A DNA stretch of 64,000 nt from Picochlorum sp. SENEW3 (lineage: Eukaryota). The position numbers and the translations under genes are program-made. Positions 21,942 to 59,422 of the stretch are shown one piece after another. Where the stretch lies: NCBI GenBank assembly GCA_034226945.1, contig CP120460.1:434001-498000 (forward strand), given 5' to 3'. Position 1 is the first letter of the stretch; each line of letters opens with the position of its first letter. Under the pieces are notes generated by a model. The model was given only the letters and a program-made list of their open reading frames with translations, did no database searches and had not been told where the DNA came from.

Positions 21942-24212
21942 ATGGTGAGGGTAGAACATTTTTCATTTTGATATATGGGAGACACATACTAGGTGTCGTC
22001 GGATGAAAACAAAGCAAGCATGGTGACGGAGGGAGACGTTGCTGGGCAGAAAGAGCCAAGCACGGTGACGACTGCGCAGGTGCCATTGCCCCAGGCGAAA
22101 TTAACAACTGCATTGGCTGGTTTACGTCATACATTTGTAGTTGCTGATGCTACGCTGCCCGACTGCCCGCTTGTGTATGCAAGCGAAGGGTTCATGCAGA
22201 TGACTGGCTACTCCTCTGAGGAGATTCTTGGGCATAATTGCAGATTTTTACAAGGAGAAGGTACTGATCCAAAGTCTGTGGATCAGATTAGAGAAGCTGT
22301 GAAGACGGGCAAATCGTTGTGTACTAGATTGTTGAATTATAAAAAGGATGGGACGCCGTTTTGGAATTTGCTGACAATCACGCCGATTCGCGATGAGACT
22401 GGCCGGGTTGTCAAGTTTGTGGGGGTGCAGGTGGATGTGACGTCGACAACGGAAGGTCATGCGATTCATGATGCATCTGGAGTTCCTGTGTTGATTAATT
22501 ATGATGATAGATTGAAGGAGAATGTTGCGAAGCCGATTGTTGATGACGTACTGCATGCAGTACAGGCGGGTGAGGGCAAGACTCCAAAGCGCCTATCAAG
22601 GCAATCTGTAGCTGGGTCTCCTGGTCGGGGGCTGCCTCGTTATGCATTGGATCTTGCGACAACTGTAGAGAGAATTCAATCGAATTTCGTCATTGCGGAT
22701 CCAACGCTGCCGGATTGCCCAATTGTGTTTGCGTCTGATTCGTTCATTGAGTTATGTGGATATCGTAGGGAAGAAGTGTTGGGGCGCAATTGCCGCTTCT
22801 TGCAGGGCAAACATACTGATAGATCAACAGTTGATACTCTTAAAAAAGCCATAAAAGAACAGAGGGAGATCACGGTGAGACTGTTGAATTACAAAAAGGA
22901 TGGCACTCCATTTTGGAATATGCTCACTGTCGCCCCCATTCGAGATGTCTCTGGAGCGCCCAGGTTTCTGGTCGGCGTTCAAGTGGACGTCACGGAAGAA
23001 TCTACGGTAGAAAAAGCTGCACCGTTAGGAATGAAGGCTGCACATGATGTTGGTAACGCAATGAAGAGAGTTGATTGGGTTGGTCTGGACCCTTGGGCAT
23101 CCTTTACAAATACCGTCTTGCCACTCAAGCCTCACAGAAGACAAGACTCTGGAGGCGTCTCTATTCAAAAATTGCAGCACGATAAAGGAAAAATCAAACT
23201 TTCTGACTTTAGACGACGAAAGCAGCTCGGGACCGGGGATGTTGGTATGGTGGACTTGGTGGCCATGGATGGCCATCAATTTGCCATGAAGTCTTTGGAA
23301 AAGCAAGAAATGATTGATCGGAACAAGGTTGGTCGCGTCAGAACCGAACAGAAAATCCTCGAAACGATTGATCATCCTTTCCTATCAACATGCTATGCCA
23401 AATTAAAAACCGACACACATTTGCACTTTATCCTGGAATATTGTTCAGGTGGTGAGCTGTATGGCCTGATGAATCGGATGCCTGGAAAGCGCCTTCCAGA
23501 AGCCTGGGTCAAGTTTTATGCCGCAGAAGTGTTAATGGCTCTCCAGTACTTGCACCTCAATGGATTCATGTATCGAGATTTGAAACCAGAGAATATTCTC
23601 ATCCACGAATCAGGGCATATTAAACTGACAGACTTTGATCTGTCATGGTGCCAGGGAGAGACTATTCCCAGCGTAGAAAAGATACACGTGCCACGCTCGG
23701 CGACTGACATTGAGAATGGTCTGTCGCCTGAGCGAGAAGATTACATCATTAAAATAAAACCAAAGGGAAGAGCAAACTCTTTTGTCGGCACGGAAGAATA
23801 CTTGGCTCCAGAAATCATCACAGGACAGGGCCATGACTACATGGTGGACTGGTGGTCCTTTGGCATCCTCATTTACGAACTCTCCTTTGGCATCTCGCCC
23901 TTCAGAGGACCACGACGAGATGCAACATTTGACAATATTCTAAAAAAGAAACTGCAGTTTTCCACCCTGGAGCCACCCATGTCTGATGAATGCAAGGATT
24001 TGCTCAAGTCATTGCTCAGAAAAGATCCAGAAGATCGATTGGGCCATGAAGCAGGAGCAGAAGATGTCAAACGACATCCATGGTTCCATGACATAGATTG
24101 GTCTTTATTGGCCAACTCAAAGCCTCCTTATATTCCTGGTGAGACACCAAAGCTACCAGAGAAGGAGATAAAGACAACAACGTCCACTTCCCCGACTGTG
24201 GAGGGATTTTGA
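21942..24212 (+). CDS. PHOT: Phototropin (LOV1-LOV2-Ser/Thr kinase). Probable ATG-only first coding exon 21942-21944, then exon 21993-24212; alternative start at 22020
   Basis: Two NCRFLQG LOV domains and an AGC-VIII kinase ([28 protein letters not shown]). Confidence 0.96.
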
Positions 24213-24330
24213 TGATGAATGACCATCATCATGTAATAATAATCCAATATAAGGCCCAAACCATGCATTCCTAAATCATTAAATCGATATACTCGATTAA
24301 TAATTACTATTTAGCGAAGAAAGCGTCACA

Positions 24331-25245
24331 ATGGCAACAATTCTAGCCAATGGTATCTCCACGCCTTTCTTCGACTCTGGTCGATCTTCACGCCTGATGT
24401 CCTCAGCAAATAGTACATTACATGAAAAATTCATCCAGTCAAGAAGGAGCGTGATCGCGTTTGGGACAGATGCACAGACGCACACATGTGAACCTGGCTC
24501 AACAGTCCTCGTCGCTGGCGCCACGGGCGGTGTGGGACAATTGGTCGCTGCAAAGCTTTTAGAACGAGGATACACTGTCAAAGCACTAAGCAGAAGTCGA
24601 GAGAAGACCAAAACCCTCCTTGGGGATGCTCCACATCTGGAGGTTGTCTATGGGGATATGAGGCAACCAGAAACCTTGACAGAGGCGATGGACAAGGTTG
24701 ATGCCGTGTGTTGCTGCACTGGAACAACAGCATTTCCTTCAAAACGATGGGATGGAGGAAATACTCCAGAGCAGACAGATTACATCGGCGTGAAGCATTT
24801 GATTGACGCTGCAGCAGCATCTGAAGGCCTGAAGAGATTCATTCTCACCACATCAGCTGGTGTCGACAGATCCAATCAATTCCCATTCATCATATTGAAC
24901 GCATTTGGAGTACTCAAGTATAAAAAAATGGCAGAAGACGCCCTTCGGGCCTCTGGAGTACCATACACCATACTCAGACCAAACAGATTGACAGATGGCC
25001 CATACACATCATATGATTTGAACACATTATTGAAAGGGGTGAGTGGAGAGAGACAGGACATTCAACTCACCCTTGAAGATGACCAGGTCGGTGAGACATC
25101 CCGCATTGCGGTCGCAGAGGCGATCGTTCAATGCTTGACTGCACCAGAGACCACCAATGCAGTCTTTTCCATAGGGTCTCGACCTGGTCCTGGACCAGGC
25201 CAAGACGCCAAAGCCTGGCAGACGCTGTTCCGTTCCATACTTTAA
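24331..25245 (+). CDS. ROQH1: Plastid atypical short-chain dehydrogenase/reductase, ROQH1-like
   Basis: GATGGVGQLV, CTGTTAFPSKRW, FGVLKYKKMAED, RLTDGPYTSYDLNTLLK, GPGQD..W..LF, matching my recollection of Arabidopsis At4g31530. Confidence 0.8.
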   Translation: MATILANGISTPFFDSGRSSRLMSSANSTLHEKFIQSRRSVIAFGTDAQTHTCEPGSTVLVAGATGGVGQLVAAKLLERGYTVKALSRSREKTKTLLGDAPHLEVVYGDMRQPETLTEAMDKVDAVCCCTGTTAFPSKRWDGGNTPEQTDYIGVKHLIDAAAASEGLKRFILTTSAGVDRSNQFPFIILNAFGVLKYKKMAEDALRASGVPYTILRPNRLTDGPYTSYDLNTLLKGVSGERQDIQLTLEDDQVGETSRIAVAEAIVQCLTAPETTNAVFSIGSRPGPGPGQDAKAWQTLFRSIL

Positions 25246-25323: not shown

Positions 25324-26382
25324 ATGCAACGCGAGGTACTACTAATACTAGACACTCATGACAACAACCATGGGCTCATCTGATTCTGATCAGGATACTC
25401 CCCAGCCCTATTATGCGCTTCGGAAAAGGAGGAAGAGTGAGAAAAGGTGAGAGTTTCAAGCCAATGTCAGCAGAATGTCGTTGAGATGTTTCCAACCGCC
25501 GTCTGTTTCTGTAGGGATGATTCGAATGCTCGTAATATAGAACTGTTAAAGGAATATGCGCATCAAGCGTCAAAGATTGTGGTATTTTCAGGGTCTGGTC
25601 TGTCTGCAACGAGTGGCATGTCGACATTTAGTACCAAGGGTGGATTATACGATATGGCGCGGCAAAAGTACCAATTGAGCGATGGGAAAAACTTGTTTAC
25701 ATATTCTTTTTATAAAAGGCGTAAACAGGAGGCTGAGGCGTTCTTTGTGGATATTCAACGAGAGGCGCGTGCTGCTACTCCTGCTCCTGGGCACGTGGCC
25801 CTGGCACGCTTGTCTGAGGCTGGGAGATTGTCGCGGCATTATACGCTGAATATAGATGGATTAGCTACTCGAGTAGGGATGGATGTGTGGGATCCTGAGA
25901 GTAATGTGGATGGGTGTACTGTCGAGATGCATGGGTCAGTACACCACTTGGTATGCACAGGGTGTGGGACAACCACGCTGATGAGCGAAACACATGCTGC
26001 GTCCTTGTCACGTCATGTGTCTGTGCGGTGTGATGTGTGCAAGGATTCTTCCTTGAGGTTCAAGGTGATGATGTATGATGACGATGATGGGGAATATATT
26101 ACGCCTGATGATGTCATGGACCTCATGGAAGAGGATGTCAAAGGGGCTGATATGATTGTCTGGGTGGGGATTTCGTTTCAACAGAGTGCCTCGACGTCGT
26201 ATTTTAGAAAGGTGAGGTATTGGCTGCAGGAGGATGACAAGCATCAGCGTGTGGTACAGGTGGTTATTAATCCTTCGGATGAGGCTTTGTGGAATGTGCT
26301 CACAGCGAGTAGTAATCAAGGAGAGCTGAATATTCTGGAGGTGTTGGGCACTGCTGATCACATCCTTCCCATGTTACTCTAG
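25324..26382 (+). CDS. Sirtuin (SIR2 family), 3 exons (25324-25335, 25394-25446, 25515-26382), 310 aa
   Basis: SGSGLS, YTLNIDGL, EMHGS, zinc ribbon CTGC...CDVC; two GT-AG introns give one frame with an N-terminal NLS-like RKRRK. Confidence 0.82.
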
Positions 26383-54437: not shown

Positions 54438-54640
54438 GACGCTTAGAGTCAATAATTAATTTCTCAATTGACTGTATGTAGCTGGATACGAGTGTCCAAA
54501 CAAAGAAAAGAAAGAGAAATCGATTACAGGCCTTGTCTGGAAGGACAAACCATCTAGTCATGATGCCATGATGGGTCATCATCAGATCTGTCACCCAAAG
54601 AACCCTTGACCCATTAATTGAAATATAACCCTCTAAAAAA

Positions 54641-54988
54641 ATGCCAACTGCAATCGTCAATGTGAATGTCCCCAGCGACAAGGTCAAGGACAGCGACGTT
54701 GCTAAATCCTTGAGCAGCATCGTGGCCAAAACAGTGAAGAAACCGGAGCAATATGTTATGACTCACATCAATACTGATCAAGTAATGACATATTCTGGAA
54801 CACAGGAACCCTGTGCGTTTGTGAGAGTCATATCCATTGGGAATTTGAACGCAGAGTCCAACGTGACAATTTCATCGAGTATTTGTGAGCTCCTGCAACA
54901 GAGTTACGATGTTGATCCAAGCAGATGTTATATCGAATTTGTGGATAGCGAACGTCATATGTTTGGGTGGAATTCAAGGACATTTTAA
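54641..54988 (+). CDS. MIF: Macrophage migration inhibitory factor / D-dopachrome tautomerase-like protein
   Basis: Catalytic N-terminal Pro (MP), KPEQYVM, EPCA..V.SIG, FGWN..TF C-terminus, 115 aa. Confidence 0.92.
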   Translation: MPTAIVNVNVPSDKVKDSDVAKSLSSIVAKTVKKPEQYVMTHINTDQVMTYSGTQEPCAFVRVISIGNLNAESNVTISSSICELLQQSYDVDPSRCYIEFVDSERHMFGWNSRTF

Positions 54989-55223
54989 AGCATCTGCTGC
55001 ACAGGTGGACAGTGCTGGGACCACGTTGTGGGTGGGTTTGCGAACGTTTGTGTGGTATCAGGACTGTATCGCCTGCAGACATCAACCCGGGATGTGTATG
55101 CATCATGGTATTGTCCTATCTACACGAAAGAGGATAGAAAAAAGAGGTCTAAGGACCGGGTCAGAAGATTGATCTCTTTTTGTTGCGACGGAAATTCGAT
55201 TTTGTAAACAATTTATTGTAGAC

Positions 55224-55339
55224 ATCATAAGGTTGCGGGTTCGATCCCCGTCCGAGGTGGCGAAAATATTTCTGCCATGCCGTACGTGTTACAGCGTACT
55301 TGCCTCGGTGGCGCAATTGGATAGCGCATATGACTTCTA
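55224..55339 (+). tRNA. trnR-UCU: Circularly permuted tRNA-Arg(UCU): 3' half 55224-55259, spacer 55260-55301, 5' half 55302-55339; junction at 37/38
   Basis: The rejoined 74-nt sequence folds fully: acceptor GCCTCGG/CCGAGGT, D stem GCGC/GCGC, anticodon stem TATGA/TCATA with loop CT-TCT-AA, T stem GCGGG/CCCGT with loop TTCGATC, discriminator G. Confidence 0.92.
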
Positions 55340-55612
55340 TTCTGATTCTTTTGACGTCTTTCTCCGGGTAGAGTAGTTTTGTCTTCGCAAGGAAGTGCAG
55401 GTACCCATTTCTTTTCATGTTGCAAGCTGTCTGTCTGTAGAAAGCATGCCATAGGGTCAAATACCCCTTTTGTGTAATGATGAATATAAGGGATGGTAGT
55501 AATACCGTTTTTCTGATGTTTGTTTTACACGCATGATGCAAAAAGAGTAACACGATGACTTGACTTTCTAGTAGAATCACCCATCAAGATTTGGTAATGG
55601 CGCTGGAGGAGG

Positions 55613-58600
55613 TTATACTGCTGCTGCTGTGGTGGTGAAAGATGTCTGTACAGATCCTCCTGCTCCAGCGACATTCGATACACTGGTGATTGTAACTGTG
55701 TAACTGGTGCCTGGTTGCAATTGTCCAAATGTCTTGCAGGGGCCATTCTCCACTGTTGGTGGGTTGGAGCCAAGGGCAACATTGTAATAGTCCACACAAG
55801 TGGCATCTAGCGGTGCATTCCAGCACACTGTGGCTGATGTTTCATCCACAGAAGTGACTTGGGGATTCAGTGGACTGCTTGGAGGTGTGCATGCTGGAGG
55901 TGATGGTGATGGTGATGGTGATGGCGAGGGTGAAGGAGATGGTGATGGAGATGGTGATGGAGATGGTGATGGTGATGGCGAGGGTGAAGGAGATGGTGAT
56001 GGAGATGGTGATGGAGATGGTGATGGTGATGGTGATGGTGATGGTGATGGTGATGGTGATGGTGATGGTGAAGGAGATGGTGAAGGAGATGGTGATGGTG
56101 ATGGTGATGGAGATGGTGAAGGAGATGGTGATGGTGATGGTGATGGTGATGGTGATGGTGATGGTGATGGAGATGGTGAAGGAGATGCTGATGGCGATGG
56201 CGATGGCGATGGCGATGATGACGCTGGCTCAAGGCTTGGTGGACTTGGAACAATAGGCTCTGGAGATGGCGAAGGCTCTGGCTCTGGAGACGGTGATGGA
56301 GATGGGGATGAAACTGTTGGACCAATGATTGGCTTGGCTGGCTCTGGCTCTGGCACCATGCCAGTTGGTCCAGGTGGCAGAGCAACTGTTGTGAACGTGA
56401 TGCTCGTGGACCCCCCTCCTCCAAATCTTTCGGCATAAGAGCTGACTGTCGCAGAGTACTGAGTTCCTGGAGCAAGGTCTTCCACTGTCACACATTCCCC
56501 ACGTTGAACCTTGATGGTTCCAAGTGCCACTGATACAGCCTGTACACCAACAGGCGTGACGTTGACGTCATAATAGTCCACACACCCTCCGTTCTCTGGT
56601 GGATTCCAGCACATCTCGACACTCGTTGCCCCCAGAGTAGTCACACGCACATCGCTTGGTCCTCCTGGCCTGATCAATGTAGAGCAGAGCTGTGATGGTG
56701 GAGATGGTGGTGGACTAGGAGGAACTGGAGGCGGGCTTGGCCCAGGTGGCAGAGCAACTGTTGTGAACGTGATGCTCGTGGACCCCCCTCCTCCAAATCT
56801 TTCGGCATAAGAGCTGACTGTCGCAGAGTACTGAGTTCCTGGAGCAAGGTCTTCCACTGTCACACATTCCCCGCGTTGAACCTTGATGGTTCCAAGTGCC
56901 ACTGATACAGCCTGTACACCAACAGGCGTGACGTTGACGTCATAATAGTCCACACACCCTCCGTTCTCTGGTGGATTCCAGCACATCTCGACACTCGTTG
57001 CCCCCAGAGTAGTCACACGCACATCGCTTGGCCCTCCTGGCCTGATCAATGTAGAGCAGAGCTGTGATGGTGGAGATGGTGGTGGACTAGGAGGAACTGG
57101 AGGTGGACTCGGTGGCGCTGGGACAGTTGTGAAGGTGAGCTCAGAAGACCCACCACCTTTTGTTGTCACGGAGGTGACTTTCGCAGAGTATTTTGTTCCA
57201 GGAGCCAAATCAGTCACACGAACACACTGCCCACTCTGTACCTTGATACTGCTGCCTGAGAAGAACAAGGAAGACAGGCCATACAGGTTCACCGGAGTGA
57301 TTTGAACCTCGTAATAATCCACACACCCACGATTGGATGGAGTATCCCTGCACATCATCAGAAGGCAATAATAATGTTTTGATCCTACAGACAAAGACAC
57401 ACAGCAGCAACATACCAACACAGATCTACGCTTGTAGATCCCAACTGTGTTACCCTGAGATTAGAAGGCCCATTTGGAACAATATTAGTGCTGCATAGGC
57501 GTGAAGGAGGAGATGGTGGAGGCGGCGGTGGCTGTGGTGGTGATGGACTTGGGCTTGTCTGGCAGATGTTGTTCTCCTTCACCGCAATGAAGTAATTGAA
57601 CCACCCACACGTGTTGATCGCAACCTTAGAAGCTTGATAGTAAGTGAATGTAAAGCATCCTGGCCAGTATGCAGCTCTCTTTAGATCATGAATTGCCTGT
57701 GAGCAGGTAATTGGACAGTCTACACCAGCATTGGCCATAGCAGCAGCTACTTTGGACAAAGGACACGCCGATTTTGCTGTTGCAAGAGCTTCAGACCACT
57801 CACTACTAGCACATCCATACTTTTGCGCTGCCTGAATCGCATTATCCAAGGCAACTTCGCACGAGGAAGGCTTTGGTGCACAAAGCTCCTGATTGATTTG
57901 AATAAAGACATCAGGTCCACACAGGTTAACGACAATCTGCGCTGCGTAATTGTAATCATTTGTTCCACAAGACGTGTAAAATGTAGACGCTTTTGCCCTC
58001 AGATTGTTCAATGCACTCTGACAGGTGTACGGGCATGCGTTGCCAACTGTGGCAGCCAATACAGTTTCTGCATCATCTCTGCACAAGGCCTTTGTCTCAC
58101 TCAATGCAGCCATGTATTCATCACTGGCACAGCCTTTTTCTTGAGCTTGCTCTGCTGTATTTTGAGCAGCAGCAAAGCACTGATATGCCGAAACATCTTC
58201 CTGAGGAACTCCAATGTCACAAAATCCGCCATATACTGATTTCCCAATGCACTCCAAGGACTGGTACCCACATCTGGCCTGTGCCTGTTGAATTGCAGCA
58301 GTATATTCATCAGAATCACATCCAGTTTGATTGTAAATGTTCCATGCATATGCTACGGCATCATCACAAGAGAGTGATGTACTGGCCCCGTCAAGCCCAA
58401 CAAGAACTTGTCCCGAGGTTGCACATGAAATATATGTGTACAATTCTCCATACGACTGATTATACCCTGCTGGATTTGGGCAGAGGACATCCAGACCACA
58501 CGAGGACTCTACTTGATACCGTTCACAACAAGTCTGATTCGTAAACCCTGTGCTACTTCCGAGATACAGTGGGTAGAAGCCACTCTCCTTTGCTGCTACA

Positions 58601-59145
58601 TATTCAGGAGGACAATCCACCTCTGAATCTTCAGCCTCAGTACTATCCACCTCCACAAGGGTTGTATTATCGCCGCAAATTCCTCCCACGCGCTGAGCCA
58701 TGCACAGATATGCCTGATTCCCACACAAGGCCAGTGCTTGCCGCCGTGCTACAGAGAACTGATCAGAGTCGCATCCCAGGTCGCTTTGGTTTGCGACATT
58801 CTGGACATATTGCATCGCCTCATCACAGGTGGTCGATGCACCACTGTTGTCTGATCCGACAAGTAGCTCTCTAGACGTCCCACAGGAGGAATATGGAGCC
58901 AAAGCCCCAAAGGAGTCGTCATAAATGGCTGGATCGGAGCAGAGTACGTCAATACCGCAGCTGATTGCAAGCTCATTGCTAGCACAACAGTCCCCACCGC
59001 TATCTGAATCACCAAAGTACAGCACATAGTATCCTGAGGATGTTGCAGCGGTGTAGTTTGCAGGACATTCTTGGGACTGTGCCGCGCTCAGAAACACGGC
59101 AAGGAATAAAGCGAAAAGACTGTGCCTCGCCAAGTTTCCCTTCAT
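55613..59145 (-). CDS. Secreted wall/extracellular glycoprotein: signal peptide, Cys-rich repeats, four FN3 domains, long (Ser-Pro)n rod; 2 exons (59145-57416, 57347-55613), 1154 aa
   Basis: Intron GTATGT...CAG 57415-57348 gives ...[19 protein letters not shown]3 motifs CW.PP...CVDYY and L.PGT.Y. Confidence 0.85.
55899..56216. repeat. Hexamer tandem repeat (GGTGAT and variants) encoding about 50 Ser-Pro dipeptides on the minus strand
   Basis: Directly visible in the sequence. Confidence 0.95.
56370..57103. repeat. Near-perfect direct duplication of one FN3+linker unit (56370-56731 and 56742-57103; 372-nt period)
   Basis: Alignment by eye shows two substitutions, and the encoded peptides are identical. 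Confidence 0.92.
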
Positions 59146-59422
59146 CTTGTCCTGTACACAGGGGCAAAATATTCTAACACTTTTTGTTAACTGCTCAGGA
59201 TTCCACGCCTACCGTCTGATGGCTTCCCATACTGTTATGGGACTTTTCAGAATCTGAATTGCCACGTAATTTGCCACGTGTTTCTGTTTTCTCGGATGTC
59301 CCGACAGAGGACGCGCAGGTTCAGATTTGCATGGAGATGCACGAGGATGCATGACGGTGACAGAAGAGCAACGTATCGCGCATCGATTACACATATATAA
59401 CAGCAACAAATGTATTAGAATA

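What the first reader, a model, noticed from the sequence alone, without database searches (positions are those of the whole stretch)
55224..55339. Circularly permuted nuclear tRNA-Arg(UCU) gene
Seen: the 3' half ATCATAAGGTTGCGGGTTCGATCCCCGTCCGAGGTG (55224-55259) precedes the 5' half GCCTCGGTGGCGCAATTGGATAGCGCATATGACTTCTA (55302-55339). Rejoined, they give a complete 74-nt cloverleaf with all four stems paired (two G-U pairs), U8, A14, G18G19, the Arg identity bases A20 and C35, TTCGA and G73. The break is exactly at the canonical intron site 37/38. I see no conventional partner half on either side. Established: permuted tRNAs mature through a circular intermediate (splicing endonuclease and ligase, then RNase P and tRNase Z remove the spacer). 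They are known from Cyanidioschyzon merolae, prasinophytes (Ostreococcus, Micromonas), the Bigelowiella nucleomorph and Thermofilum. Inference: an occurrence in an apparently trebouxiophyte-like genome would extend that range, and standard tRNA scans would miss it.
Basis: partly seen in the sequence, partly recalled or inferred. Interest (0 to 1): 0.95.

Follow-up and report, generated by a model that had tools for sequence, protein, structure and literature searches.

The report
Permuted tRNA-Arg gene in a Picochlorum-like alga
A green microalga related to Picochlorum carries an arginine tRNA gene whose back half is written before its front half, a rare but already known arrangement that ordinary tRNA finders miss.

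Summary
On the + strand, a tRNA 3' half (55224-55259) lies before a 42-nt spacer and the matching 5' half (55302-55339). The halves form 12 of 12 inter-half base pairs and 21 of 21 stem pairs. Twelve chimeric control junctions reach only 5-8 of 12. A blind scan of both strands recovers only this locus, and 1 of 30 shuffled windows gives any call. No partner half exists elsewhere in the window. ARAGORN in linear mode and Rfam both miss the gene.

A contig from another study spans the locus in the same order. In a more diverged relative both halves are unchanged while the spacer carries at least 8 of 9 differences.

The host is a Picochlorum-like trebouxiophyte. AGA is its most-used arginine codon in this window.

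The best reading is a functional type II (37/38) permuted tRNA-Arg(UCU) gene. Expression and the circular intermediate were not shown, because only contigs were available.

Novelty is modest. The same isoacceptor and junction are listed for Ostreococcus tauri. Permuted tRNA genes were reported in the trebouxiophyte Auxenochlorella in 2025. I found no report for Picochlorum. It is a new member of a known kind.

The parts
55184..55223 (+). Upstream AT-rich region and putative leader. A T4 run at 55200-55203 and a T5 run at 55177-55181 would stop RNA polymerase III coming from upstream, so any Pol III start probably lies within 55204-55223 (inference).
   Evidence: 68% A+T against 53% for the window, and T-run positions. 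No promoter was tested.
55218..55222 (+). Leader bases -6 to -2 (GUAGA), complementary to U34-A37 plus the first trailer base. This forms an anticodon-leader helix beside the anticodon stem and brings the two cleavage sites together.
   Evidence: Present in the unconstrained fold. It adds 4.8 kcal/mol over the tRNA body (-27.5 against -22.7).
55224..55259 (+). 3' half of tRNA-Arg(UCU), positions 38-73: 3' strand of the anticodon stem, variable loop, T-arm (B-box-like GGTTCGATCCC at 55238-55248), 3' strand of the acceptor stem, discriminator G73. No CCA is encoded.
   Evidence: No listed difference at 55238-55259 in the diverged relative X17 (one of its 7 substitutions is not in the table).
55260..55301 (+). 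Intervening spacer, 42 nt, joining G73 to G1. Predicted to be removed by tRNase Z and RNase P. It has no run of 4 or more T. It contains a 6-bp hairpin (55282-55299) that the relative does not keep.
   Evidence: In X17, 6 listed substitutions and 2 insertions fall here.
55302..55339 (+). 5' half, positions 1-37: 5' strand of the acceptor stem, U8, D-arm (A-box-like TGGCGCAATTGG at 55309-55320), 5' strand of the anticodon stem, anticodon loop through A37 (anticodon UCU at 55336-55338).
   Evidence: No listed difference in X17 (one of its 7 substitutions is not in the table).
55340..55352 (+). Trailer (9 nt) and a T4 run at 55349-55352, the likely RNA polymerase III terminator.
   Evidence: T-run positions. 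The diverged relative's unalignable downstream flank carries a T7 run within about 10 nt of the 5' half's end (loose end at 55343).

Best explanation
This is a functional, circularly permuted (type II, junction 37/38) nuclear gene for tRNA-Arg(UCU) in a Picochlorum-like trebouxiophyte.

Shown here: the two halves lie in reversed order on one strand, 42 nt apart. They fit each other perfectly. They match ordinary tRNA-Arg(UCU) genes. The arrangement is found again in independent assemblies, and the halves are kept unchanged in a relative whose spacer and flank have diverged.

Inferred from the pathway established in Cyanidioschyzon merolae, as described in the review PMC3978253:
1. One transcript of roughly 130-150 nt starts in the AT-rich stretch after 55203 and ends at the T4 run at 55349-55352.
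2. The acceptor stem closes over the spacer. The leader pairs with the anticodon, placing the ends of the tRNA sequence (before A38 and after A37) side by side, as at an intron.
3. The tRNA splicing endonuclease cuts both sites and the tRNA ligase joins A37 to A38, giving a circular RNA.
4. RNase P and tRNase Z excise the spacer, and CCA is added.

Because the A and B boxes are in reversed order, transcription probably depends on the upstream AT-rich region and not on the usual internal promoter (inference).
For: - Anatomy.
- Stem pairing: 21/21 stem pairs and 12/12 inter-half pairs, against 5-8/12 in 12 chimeric controls. Chance of 12/12 is about 8e-6.
- Blind scan: 1 locus among 44 candidates. 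1 of 30 shuffles gives any call.
- No other copy of either half, and no intron-containing tRNA, in 64 kb.
- The rejoined form is 74 nt, the same length as 11 of the 12 collinear Arg(tct) genes fetched (one is called at 76 nt), and 53-66 of its positions are identical to them. All 12 read CTTCTAATC across 37/38, which fixes the junction.
- Independent assembly: X2 contig of 1335 nt, depth 52, from another study, spans 54584-55800 collinearly with 4 differences, none listed inside 55224-55339.
- Selection: the X17 contig covers 55238-55343 with 7 substitutions and 2 insertions. The 6 listed substitutions and both insertions are in the 42-nt spacer, and none is listed in the 60 covered half positions. 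P(at least 8 of 9 in the spacer) = 0.0035.
- Transcription unit: T4 or longer runs bracket the unit and are absent within it.
- Need: AGA is the commonest Arg codon, 178 of 650, in 18 Pfam-supported ORFs of the window.
- Rfam's YrlA model, whose tRNA-like module runs T-arm, stem, D-arm, aligns across 55205-55355. This confirms the permuted order with a structure-aware model.
Against: - No RNA evidence. All four runs laid were contigs, and none shows a joint from 55339 back to 55224.
- The strict bulge-helix-bulge register (32:-3, 33:-4, 35:-6, with a U-U at 34:-5) is slightly unfavourable: -21.0 against -22.7 kcal/mol for the body alone.
- The rejoined sequence's minimum-energy fold is not the cloverleaf (-26.5 against -24.7) and its z-score is only -1.69. 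This is common for unmodified tRNA sequences (recalled).
- The whole genome is not held, so I cannot say whether a collinear Arg(UCU) gene also exists.
- The seventh X17 substitution is not in the table. 28 rows of the differences table were not shown, so the X12 and X14 comparisons are incomplete.
- No orthologous permuted locus was found in metagenome, prokaryote-genome or viral contigs.
Confidence: 0.8

Rival explanations
1. A non-functional relic. An intron-containing tRNA-Arg(UCU) gene duplicated in tandem, the outer halves were deleted, and what remains is a recent untranscribed or unprocessed fossil. A collinear gene elsewhere does the work.
For: No expression data. The genome is not available, so a collinear copy cannot be excluded. 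The canonical BHB register is not favoured. A collinear Arg(tct) gene with a 22-nt intron at the anticodon-loop site exists in nature (L011), so the proposed precursor state is real.
Against: Both halves are intact, with 21/21 stem pairs. In a relative with about 20% change in the spacer and an unalignable downstream flank, no difference is listed in the halves (P = 0.0035). T-runs bracket the unit but do not interrupt it, and the relative also has a T-run just downstream. No trace of the deleted outer halves remains at up to 10 mismatches.
Confidence: 0.1
2. Two separately transcribed half-genes joined in trans, in the manner of split tRNAs, with no single transcript that circularises.
For: The order of the halves alone does not distinguish the two cases. 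The spacer contains a hairpin (55282-55299).
Against: The halves are 42 nt apart on one strand with no run of 4 or more T between them. So a polymerase III transcript starting upstream would read through both. The acceptor strands flank the spacer directly, as in all listed permuted genes (Table 1 of PMC3978253). Split tRNAs are known only from archaea (review passages).
Confidence: 0.03
3. A Y-RNA-like tRNA mimic (YrlA type) that acts as the unprocessed RNA and is not a tRNA precursor.
For: Best relaxed-threshold Rfam match is YrlA: 32 bits, E = 2.7e-5, full model length, 55205-55355.
Against: The score is far below the family's gathering score of 69. YrlA is a bacterial family (Rfam description; its biology is recalled), and this is a eukaryotic nuclear region. 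The match is explained by YrlA's own tRNA-like module. Here a complete anticodon loop with UCU, A37 and A38 is kept and matches true Arg(tct) genes, which a mimic would not need.
Confidence: 0.02
4. An assembly artefact, such as a collapsed tandem array or a chimeric join.
For: None found. Only contigs, not raw reads, could be examined.
Against: Contigs from four runs of four studies lie collinearly over the halves and spacer. These include a 1335-nt contig at depth 52 (X2) and a 1368-nt contig (X12) that each span the whole locus and both flanks, with no joints or loose ends at the half boundaries.
Confidence: 0.02

Closest known systems
Permuted tRNA-Arg(TCT) of Ostreococcus tauri, type II (Maruyama et al. 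2010, as tabulated in PMC3978253, Table 1)
   Same: Same isoacceptor and anticodon, same junction (37/38), nuclear gene of a very small green alga with a compact genome, no intron.
   Different: Different class (Mamiellophyceae against Trebouxiophyceae). The spacer is 11 bp there and 42 bp here. I did not see the O. tauri sequence, so common descent against independent origin could not be tested.
Permuted tRNA genes of Auxenochlorella UTEX 250-A (Plant Cell 2025, PMC12636532; passages and Fig. S1 legend seen)
   Same: Same class and order (Trebouxiophyceae, Chlorellales). Found for the same reason: tRNAscan-SE gave an incomplete set. The halves are in reverse order.
   Different: The example shown there is Pro(UGG). 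The passages I saw give neither the number of permuted genes nor whether Arg(UCU) is among them. It is a different genus.
Permuted tRNA genes of Cyanidioschyzon merolae (Soma et al. 2007; described in PMC3978253, section 4 read)
   Same: 3' half, intervening sequence, 5' half. An AT-rich or TATA-like upstream region and a downstream T-stretch, with no signals in the spacer. No encoded CCA. Six of its eleven genes are type II.
   Different: It is a red alga. The circular intermediate was shown experimentally there and not here. Junctions occur at four positions there. The review describes a BHB motif at the junctions, whereas here the strict register is not favoured.
Collinear tRNA-Arg(TCT) genes (12 metagenome loci L001-L012)
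   Same: 74 nt in 11 of the 12 (76 nt in one), with 53-66 positions identical to the rejoined form. Same D-arm and T-loop cores and the same CTTCTAATC anticodon loop. L011 has a 22-nt intron at the site where this gene is broken.
   Different: Their halves are in the normal order, and most sit in tandem clusters with other tRNA genes in AT-rich contigs (26-42% G+C).
YrlA, bacterial Y-RNA-like family (Rfam RF02553)
   Same: Order T-arm, stem, D-arm within a closing stem. The model aligns end to end.
   Different: 32 bits against a gathering score of 69. It is a bacterial family and has no anticodon loop to restore. This is a resemblance of architecture only.

Membership tests
Circularly permuted tRNA gene, type II (37/38) | 3' half upstream of the 5' half on the same strand, separated by a short intervening sequence (1-74 bp in known cases) | tested here: met
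   55224-55259, 42-nt spacer, 55302-55339. Range of known spacers from Table 1 of PMC3978253.
Circularly permuted tRNA gene, type II (37/38) | The two halves belong to one tRNA: acceptor and anticodon stems form between them and the whole gives a cloverleaf | tested here: met
   12/12 inter-half pairs and 21/21 stem pairs. 12 chimeric controls give 5-8/12.
Circularly permuted tRNA gene, type II (37/38) | The rejoined sequence is a recognisable isoacceptor with conserved tRNA elements | tested here: met
   ARAGORN calls Arg(tct). 53-66 of 74 positions identical to 12 collinear Arg(tct) genes. U8, A14, G18G19, TTCGA and G73 read.
Circularly permuted tRNA gene, type II (37/38) | Junction between positions 37 and 38 | tested here: met
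   Only the 37/38 join restores CTTCTAATC, which all 12 collinear genes read. ARAGORN itself tolerates neighbouring joins, so the assignment rests on homology.
Circularly permuted tRNA gene, type II (37/38) | No collinear partner halves flanking it (not a tandem array and not an intron-containing gene) | tested here: met
   No other copy of either half at up to 10 mismatches, and no tRNA with an intron, in 64 kb.
Circularly permuted tRNA gene, type II (37/38) | Leader and trailer form a bulge-helix-bulge or splice-site-like structure at the junction | tested here: inconclusive
   The canonical register has 3 of 4 central pairs, including C32:G(-3), but costs energy (-21.0 against -22.7). A 5-bp leader-anticodon helix is favoured instead (-27.5). 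No relative covers the leader, so covariation could not be tested.
Circularly permuted tRNA gene, type II (37/38) | Upstream AT-rich or TATA-like region, downstream T-stretch, and no terminator in the intervening sequence | tested here: met
   68% A+T in 55184-55223 against 53% for the window. T4 at 55349-55352. No run of 4 or more T in 55204-55348. Promoter activity was not tested.
Circularly permuted tRNA gene, type II (37/38) | Expressed through a circular intermediate and yields a mature CCA-tailed tRNA | not testable with these tools
   Only contigs were served. No joint appears in any of the 4 runs, which says nothing either way.
Circularly permuted tRNA gene, type II (37/38) | Halves under purifying selection relative to spacer and flanks | tested here: met
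   X17: at least 8 of 9 differences are in the 42-nt spacer, and none is listed in 60 half positions. P = 0.0035. This rests on one diverged relative only.
Rfam tRNA (RF00005), collinear | Score at or above the gathering threshold of 29 bits | tested here: not met
   No hit at gathering. 13 bits, E = 8.8, on the 5' half region at the relaxed threshold. This is expected for a permuted gene.
YrlA (RF02553) | Score at or above the gathering threshold of 69 bits | tested here: not met
   32 bits.

The most novel reading that the evidence does not exclude
This is the only tRNA-Arg(UCU) gene of the alga. If so, reading AGA, its commonest arginine codon, depends entirely on the circularise-and-recut pathway. 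In addition, permuted genes would be a shared and so far overlooked feature of Chlorellales (Picochlorum clade plus Auxenochlorella). Their origin would then lie deep in core chlorophytes, or they would arise repeatedly as genomes become compact. Published tRNA sets for these biotechnology strains would be systematically incomplete.
Probability: 0.3. Interest if true: 0.5.

Novelty: new member of a known kind. Interest (0 to 1): 0.35.

Why it matters
Permuted tRNA genes are one of the few cases in which a eukaryotic cell must pass through a circular RNA to make an essential molecule, and only a few lineages are known to have them.

This locus adds a second trebouxiophyte lineage, the Picochlorum clade. 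Its members are used as fast-growing production strains.

It also explains how standard annotation can leave their tRNA sets short. Published tRNAscan-SE counts are 42 and 24 nuclear tRNAs for two Picochlorum genomes (table passage seen). An assembly may then appear to lack a decoder for AGA, the commonest arginine codon in this window.

Together with Auxenochlorella and the prasinophytes, it gives comparative material for asking whether permutation arose once in green algae or repeatedly in compact genomes.

It does not reveal a new mechanism.

Tried and rejected
- **Whole genome:** not held. So I made no test for a collinear Arg(UCU) gene or for other permuted genes outside the window.
- **Reads:** 4 of the 23 listed runs were laid (X2, X12, X14, X17). 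All are contigs. There were no joints, so no evidence for or against the back-joined RNA. The X17 contig comes from an RNA library but runs 146 nt beyond the T-run, so it is not evidence of a polymerase III transcript. The differences table left out 28 rows, so I did not count X12 and X14 differences inside the gene.
They served as controls only. The scan covered spacers of 22-52 nt, so relatives with other spacer lengths would be missed.
- **Locus-specific pattern** in prokaryote genomes and viral contigs: 0 hits in each.
- **ARAGORN circular mode as proof:** rejected, because it called 7 of 12 chimeric junctions.
- **Strict BHB motif:** not favoured energetically.
- **Thermodynamic z-scores:** unremarkable, -1.37 for the precursor and -1.69 for the rejoined form.
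- **Blind scan limits:** it requires a TTCRA T-loop, at least 4/5 T-stem pairs, at least 6/7 acceptor pairs and a spacer of 1-100 nt. More deviant permuted genes in the window would be missed.
- **Two adjacent 313-aa ORFs** (24304-25245, 25441-26382) looked like tandem duplicates but are unrelated.
- **Literature:** I found no paper on permuted tRNAs in Picochlorum. Searches: 'permuted tRNA' with Picochlorum, Chlorella, Trebouxiophyceae, Auxenochlorella and Nannochloris; 'Picochlorum' with 'permuted' (7 papers, 5 listed); 'permuted tRNA' from 2015 (46 papers, 40 listed). Maruyama et al. 2010 and Soma et al. 2007 were not read. They are cited through the review.

Full report
**1. What is there**

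On the + strand the window reads, in order:
- an AT-rich stretch;
- the 3' half of a tRNA (55224-55259, positions 38-73);
- a 42-nt spacer (55260-55301);
- the 5' half (55302-55339, positions 1-37);
- nine further bases and then TTTT (55349-55352).

ARAGORN on the window finds no tRNA, with or without introns. Rfam at gathering thresholds finds nothing.

**2. Is it more than chance?**

ARAGORN in circular mode on 55224-55339 calls tRNA-Arg(tct) across the origin. In linear mode it calls nothing.

I do not lean on that call. When I later fetched 12 places where the 3' end of one tRNA gene is followed by the 5' end of an unrelated one, circular mode 'called' a tRNA at 7 of the 12 chimeric junctions.

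The stricter measure is whether the halves fit each other. Here the acceptor stem is 7/7 and the anticodon stem 5/5, so 12/12 inter-half pairs. The D stem is 4/4 and the T stem 5/5. The 12 chimeras reach 5-8 of 12 inter-half pairs. Twelve random positions all pairing has probability of about 8e-6.

I also ran a blind scan that knew nothing of the coordinates. It required a T-arm, then an acceptor 3' strand, then a complementary 5' strand within 100 nt, and tested all junctions and lengths with ARAGORN. It examined 44 candidates on both strands and returned only this locus. The same scan on 30 dinucleotide-preserving shuffles gave any call in 1 of 30.

No second copy of either half lies in the 64 kb at up to 10 mismatches. 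Within this sequence, that rules out a tandem array or a gene with a long intron.

**3. Identity of the tRNA and of the junction**

Joined by coordinates inside a script, the sequence is 74 nt. That is the length of 11 of the 12 collinear tRNA-Arg(tct) genes from the metagenome loci (one is called at 76 nt). 53-66 positions are identical to them.

All 12 read CTTCTAATC through positions 32-40. Only a join between 55339 and 55224 restores that string here. A join one base to either side would put C at position 37 or U at position 38.

ARAGORN tolerates such neighbouring joins. The 37/38 assignment therefore rests on homology, not on the program.

The spacer begins GCG, so CCA is not encoded.

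**4. Is the arrangement real, and is it kept?**

Twenty-three public runs were listed as holding the region or being linked to holders. I laid four, from four studies, and all are stored as contigs.
- **X2:** a 1335-nt contig at depth 52 covers 54584-55800 collinearly with 4 differences, none listed in the gene.
- **X12:** a 1368-nt contig covers 54516-55800 with 34 substitutions and 4 gaps. The only one listed inside 55224-55339 is 55269, in the spacer. However, 28 rows of the table were not shown, so I draw no count from X12 or X14.
- **X17:** this is the informative case. It is a more diverged relative whose 254-nt contig lies on 55238-55343 with 7 substitutions and 2 insertions. The six listed substitutions (55267, 55269, 55279, 55297, 55300, 55301) and both insertions (after 55265 and 55298) are in the spacer. 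None is listed in the 60 covered positions of the halves. Beyond 55343 its sequence no longer aligns, but it shows a T7 run within about 10 nt.

At least 8 of 9 events falling in 42 of 106 positions has P = 0.0035.

The order is therefore not an assembly accident, and the halves are under constraint that the spacer and flank do not share. This rests on one diverged relative.

**5. Host and need**

The window is gene-dense, with long uninterrupted ORFs for eukaryotic and green-lineage proteins: Sec23, Sin3, a phototropin-type PAS-PAS-kinase, an AP2 protein, eIF3 and Mo25.

Sec23 is 86% identical to that of Picochlorum sp. (Picsp_1). The next named hits are Micractinium and Parachlorella at 70-72%. 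Unnamed proteins at 88-99% also exist.

In 18 Pfam-supported ORFs, AGA is the commonest arginine codon, 178 of 650. A working UCU decoder is therefore needed. Whether this gene is the only one cannot be said, because no genome is held.

**6. How it most likely works**

Shown here: the anatomy, the fit of the halves, their conservation, and the T-runs. There is a T5 at 55177-55181 and a T4 at 55200-55203 upstream, none from 55204 to 55348, and a T4 at 55349-55352.

Inferred, from the pathway described for C. merolae in the review (section 4 read):
1. RNA polymerase III starts in the AT-rich stretch after 55203 (68% A+T against 53% for the window).
2. It reads through both halves and stops at the T4.
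3. The acceptor stem closes over the spacer.
4. The splicing endonuclease cuts before A38 and after A37, and the ligase joins them into a circle.
5. RNase P and tRNase Z remove the spacer, and CCA is added.

The B-box-like (55238-55248) and A-box-like (55309-55320) elements are in reversed order. The review argues that this makes the usual TFIIIC-dependent promoter unsuitable (passages).

On the cleavage-site structure the result is mixed.
- The strict bulge-helix-bulge register would pair C32 with G(-3), the classical anticodon-intron pair (recalled), then U33 with A(-4) and C35 with G(-6), with U-U at 34:(-5). It costs energy: -21.0 against -22.7 kcal/mol for the body alone.
- A 5-bp helix between leader -6..-2 and U34-A37 plus the first trailer base is favoured (-27.5). 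It also appears in the unconstrained fold.

Pairing of the removed sequence with the anticodon is typical of eukaryotic intron-containing pre-tRNAs (recalled). I therefore read it as a eukaryote-style splice substrate, but I record the BHB feature as inconclusive.

**7. Rivals**
- **Relic pseudogene (0.10).** It is not excluded without RNA data or the genome. However, it fits poorly with intact stems, halves unchanged beside a diverged spacer, and a retained terminator.
- **Separately transcribed split halves (0.03).** There is no terminator between the halves, and split tRNAs are an archaeal phenomenon.
- **Y-RNA-like mimic (0.02).** At a relaxed threshold the best Rfam hit is YrlA, at 32 bits with E = 2.7e-5, aligned end to end over 55205-55355. 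This is below half its gathering score of 69. It is explained by YrlA's own T-arm, stem, D-arm module. It is useful as structure-aware confirmation of the permuted order and nothing more.
- **Assembly artefact (0.02).** Four independent assemblies speak against it.

**8. Comparison with what is known**

Table 1 of the 2014 review lists 34 permuted tRNA genes. They come from C. merolae, Ostreococcus (two species), Micromonas (two species), the Bigelowiella nucleomorph and Thermofilum. They include an O. tauri Arg(TCT) of type II with an 11-bp spacer.

The 2025 Plant Cell paper on Auxenochlorella UTEX 250-A states that tRNAscan-SE gave an incomplete set and that permuted genes were then detected. 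Its Fig. S1 shows Pro(UGG). The passages I saw give no list or count.

Passages of a 2026 review of tRNA repertoires in photosynthetic organisms cite permuted genes only for C. merolae, O. tauri and B. natans.

I found no report for Picochlorum. Genome papers give tRNAscan-SE counts of 42, 24 and 75 nuclear tRNAs for three Picochlorum assemblies (table passage). The smaller ones would fit hidden genes, but also draft assemblies.

**9. Verdict**

This is a real and almost certainly functional permuted tRNA-Arg(UCU) gene. It is a new member of a known kind: the second trebouxiophyte lineage, with the same isoacceptor and junction as in O. tauri.

It is worth a note for algal genome annotation and for the question of single against repeated origin. 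It is not a surprise to a specialist. Interest 0.35.

Noticed in passing
L011:1938-2033 (minus strand of the locus): A collinear tRNA-Arg(tct) gene with a 22-nt intron at the anticodon-loop site, in a 26% G+C metagenome contig. It is 66/74 identical to the window's rejoined tRNA and has the same anticodon-stem 5' strand. This is the kind of intron-bearing gene from which a 37/38-permuted gene is thought to arise by tandem duplication.
   Followed up: partly
L004 and L009 (tRNA-Ala(tgc) just upstream of Arg(tct)): ARAGORN calls a tRNA-Ala(tgc) with a 42-nt intron in two related AT-rich metagenome contigs. The other loci carry tandem clusters such as Leu-Asn-Lys-Arg or Ile-Tyr-Asn-Arg-Leu-Glu, in contigs of 27-42% G+C. 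Their origin was not determined.
   Followed up: no
window 55205-55355: At a relaxed threshold the bacterial Y-RNA-like family YrlA (RF02553) aligns end to end at 32 bits (gathering score 69). A permuted tRNA precursor and the YrlA tRNA-like module share the order T-arm, stem, D-arm, so YrlA-type models may be a cheap flag for permuted tRNA genes.
   Followed up: partly
window 21993-24212 (+): An uninterrupted 739-aa ORF with two PAS/LOV-type domains followed by a protein kinase domain, the phototropin architecture.
   Followed up: no
window 55613-57460 (-) and 57385-59208 (-): Two long minus-strand ORFs overlap by 76 nt in different frames. The downstream one carries fibronectin type III repeats and the upstream one has no Pfam match. 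They may be one gene with a short intron or a frameshift.
   Followed up: no
window 54456-55612: The tRNA gene sits in a 1.16-kb gap between two minus-strand genes, which is long for this gene-dense window. Nothing else in the part searched (55100-55460) reached a meaningful Rfam score.
   Followed up: partly
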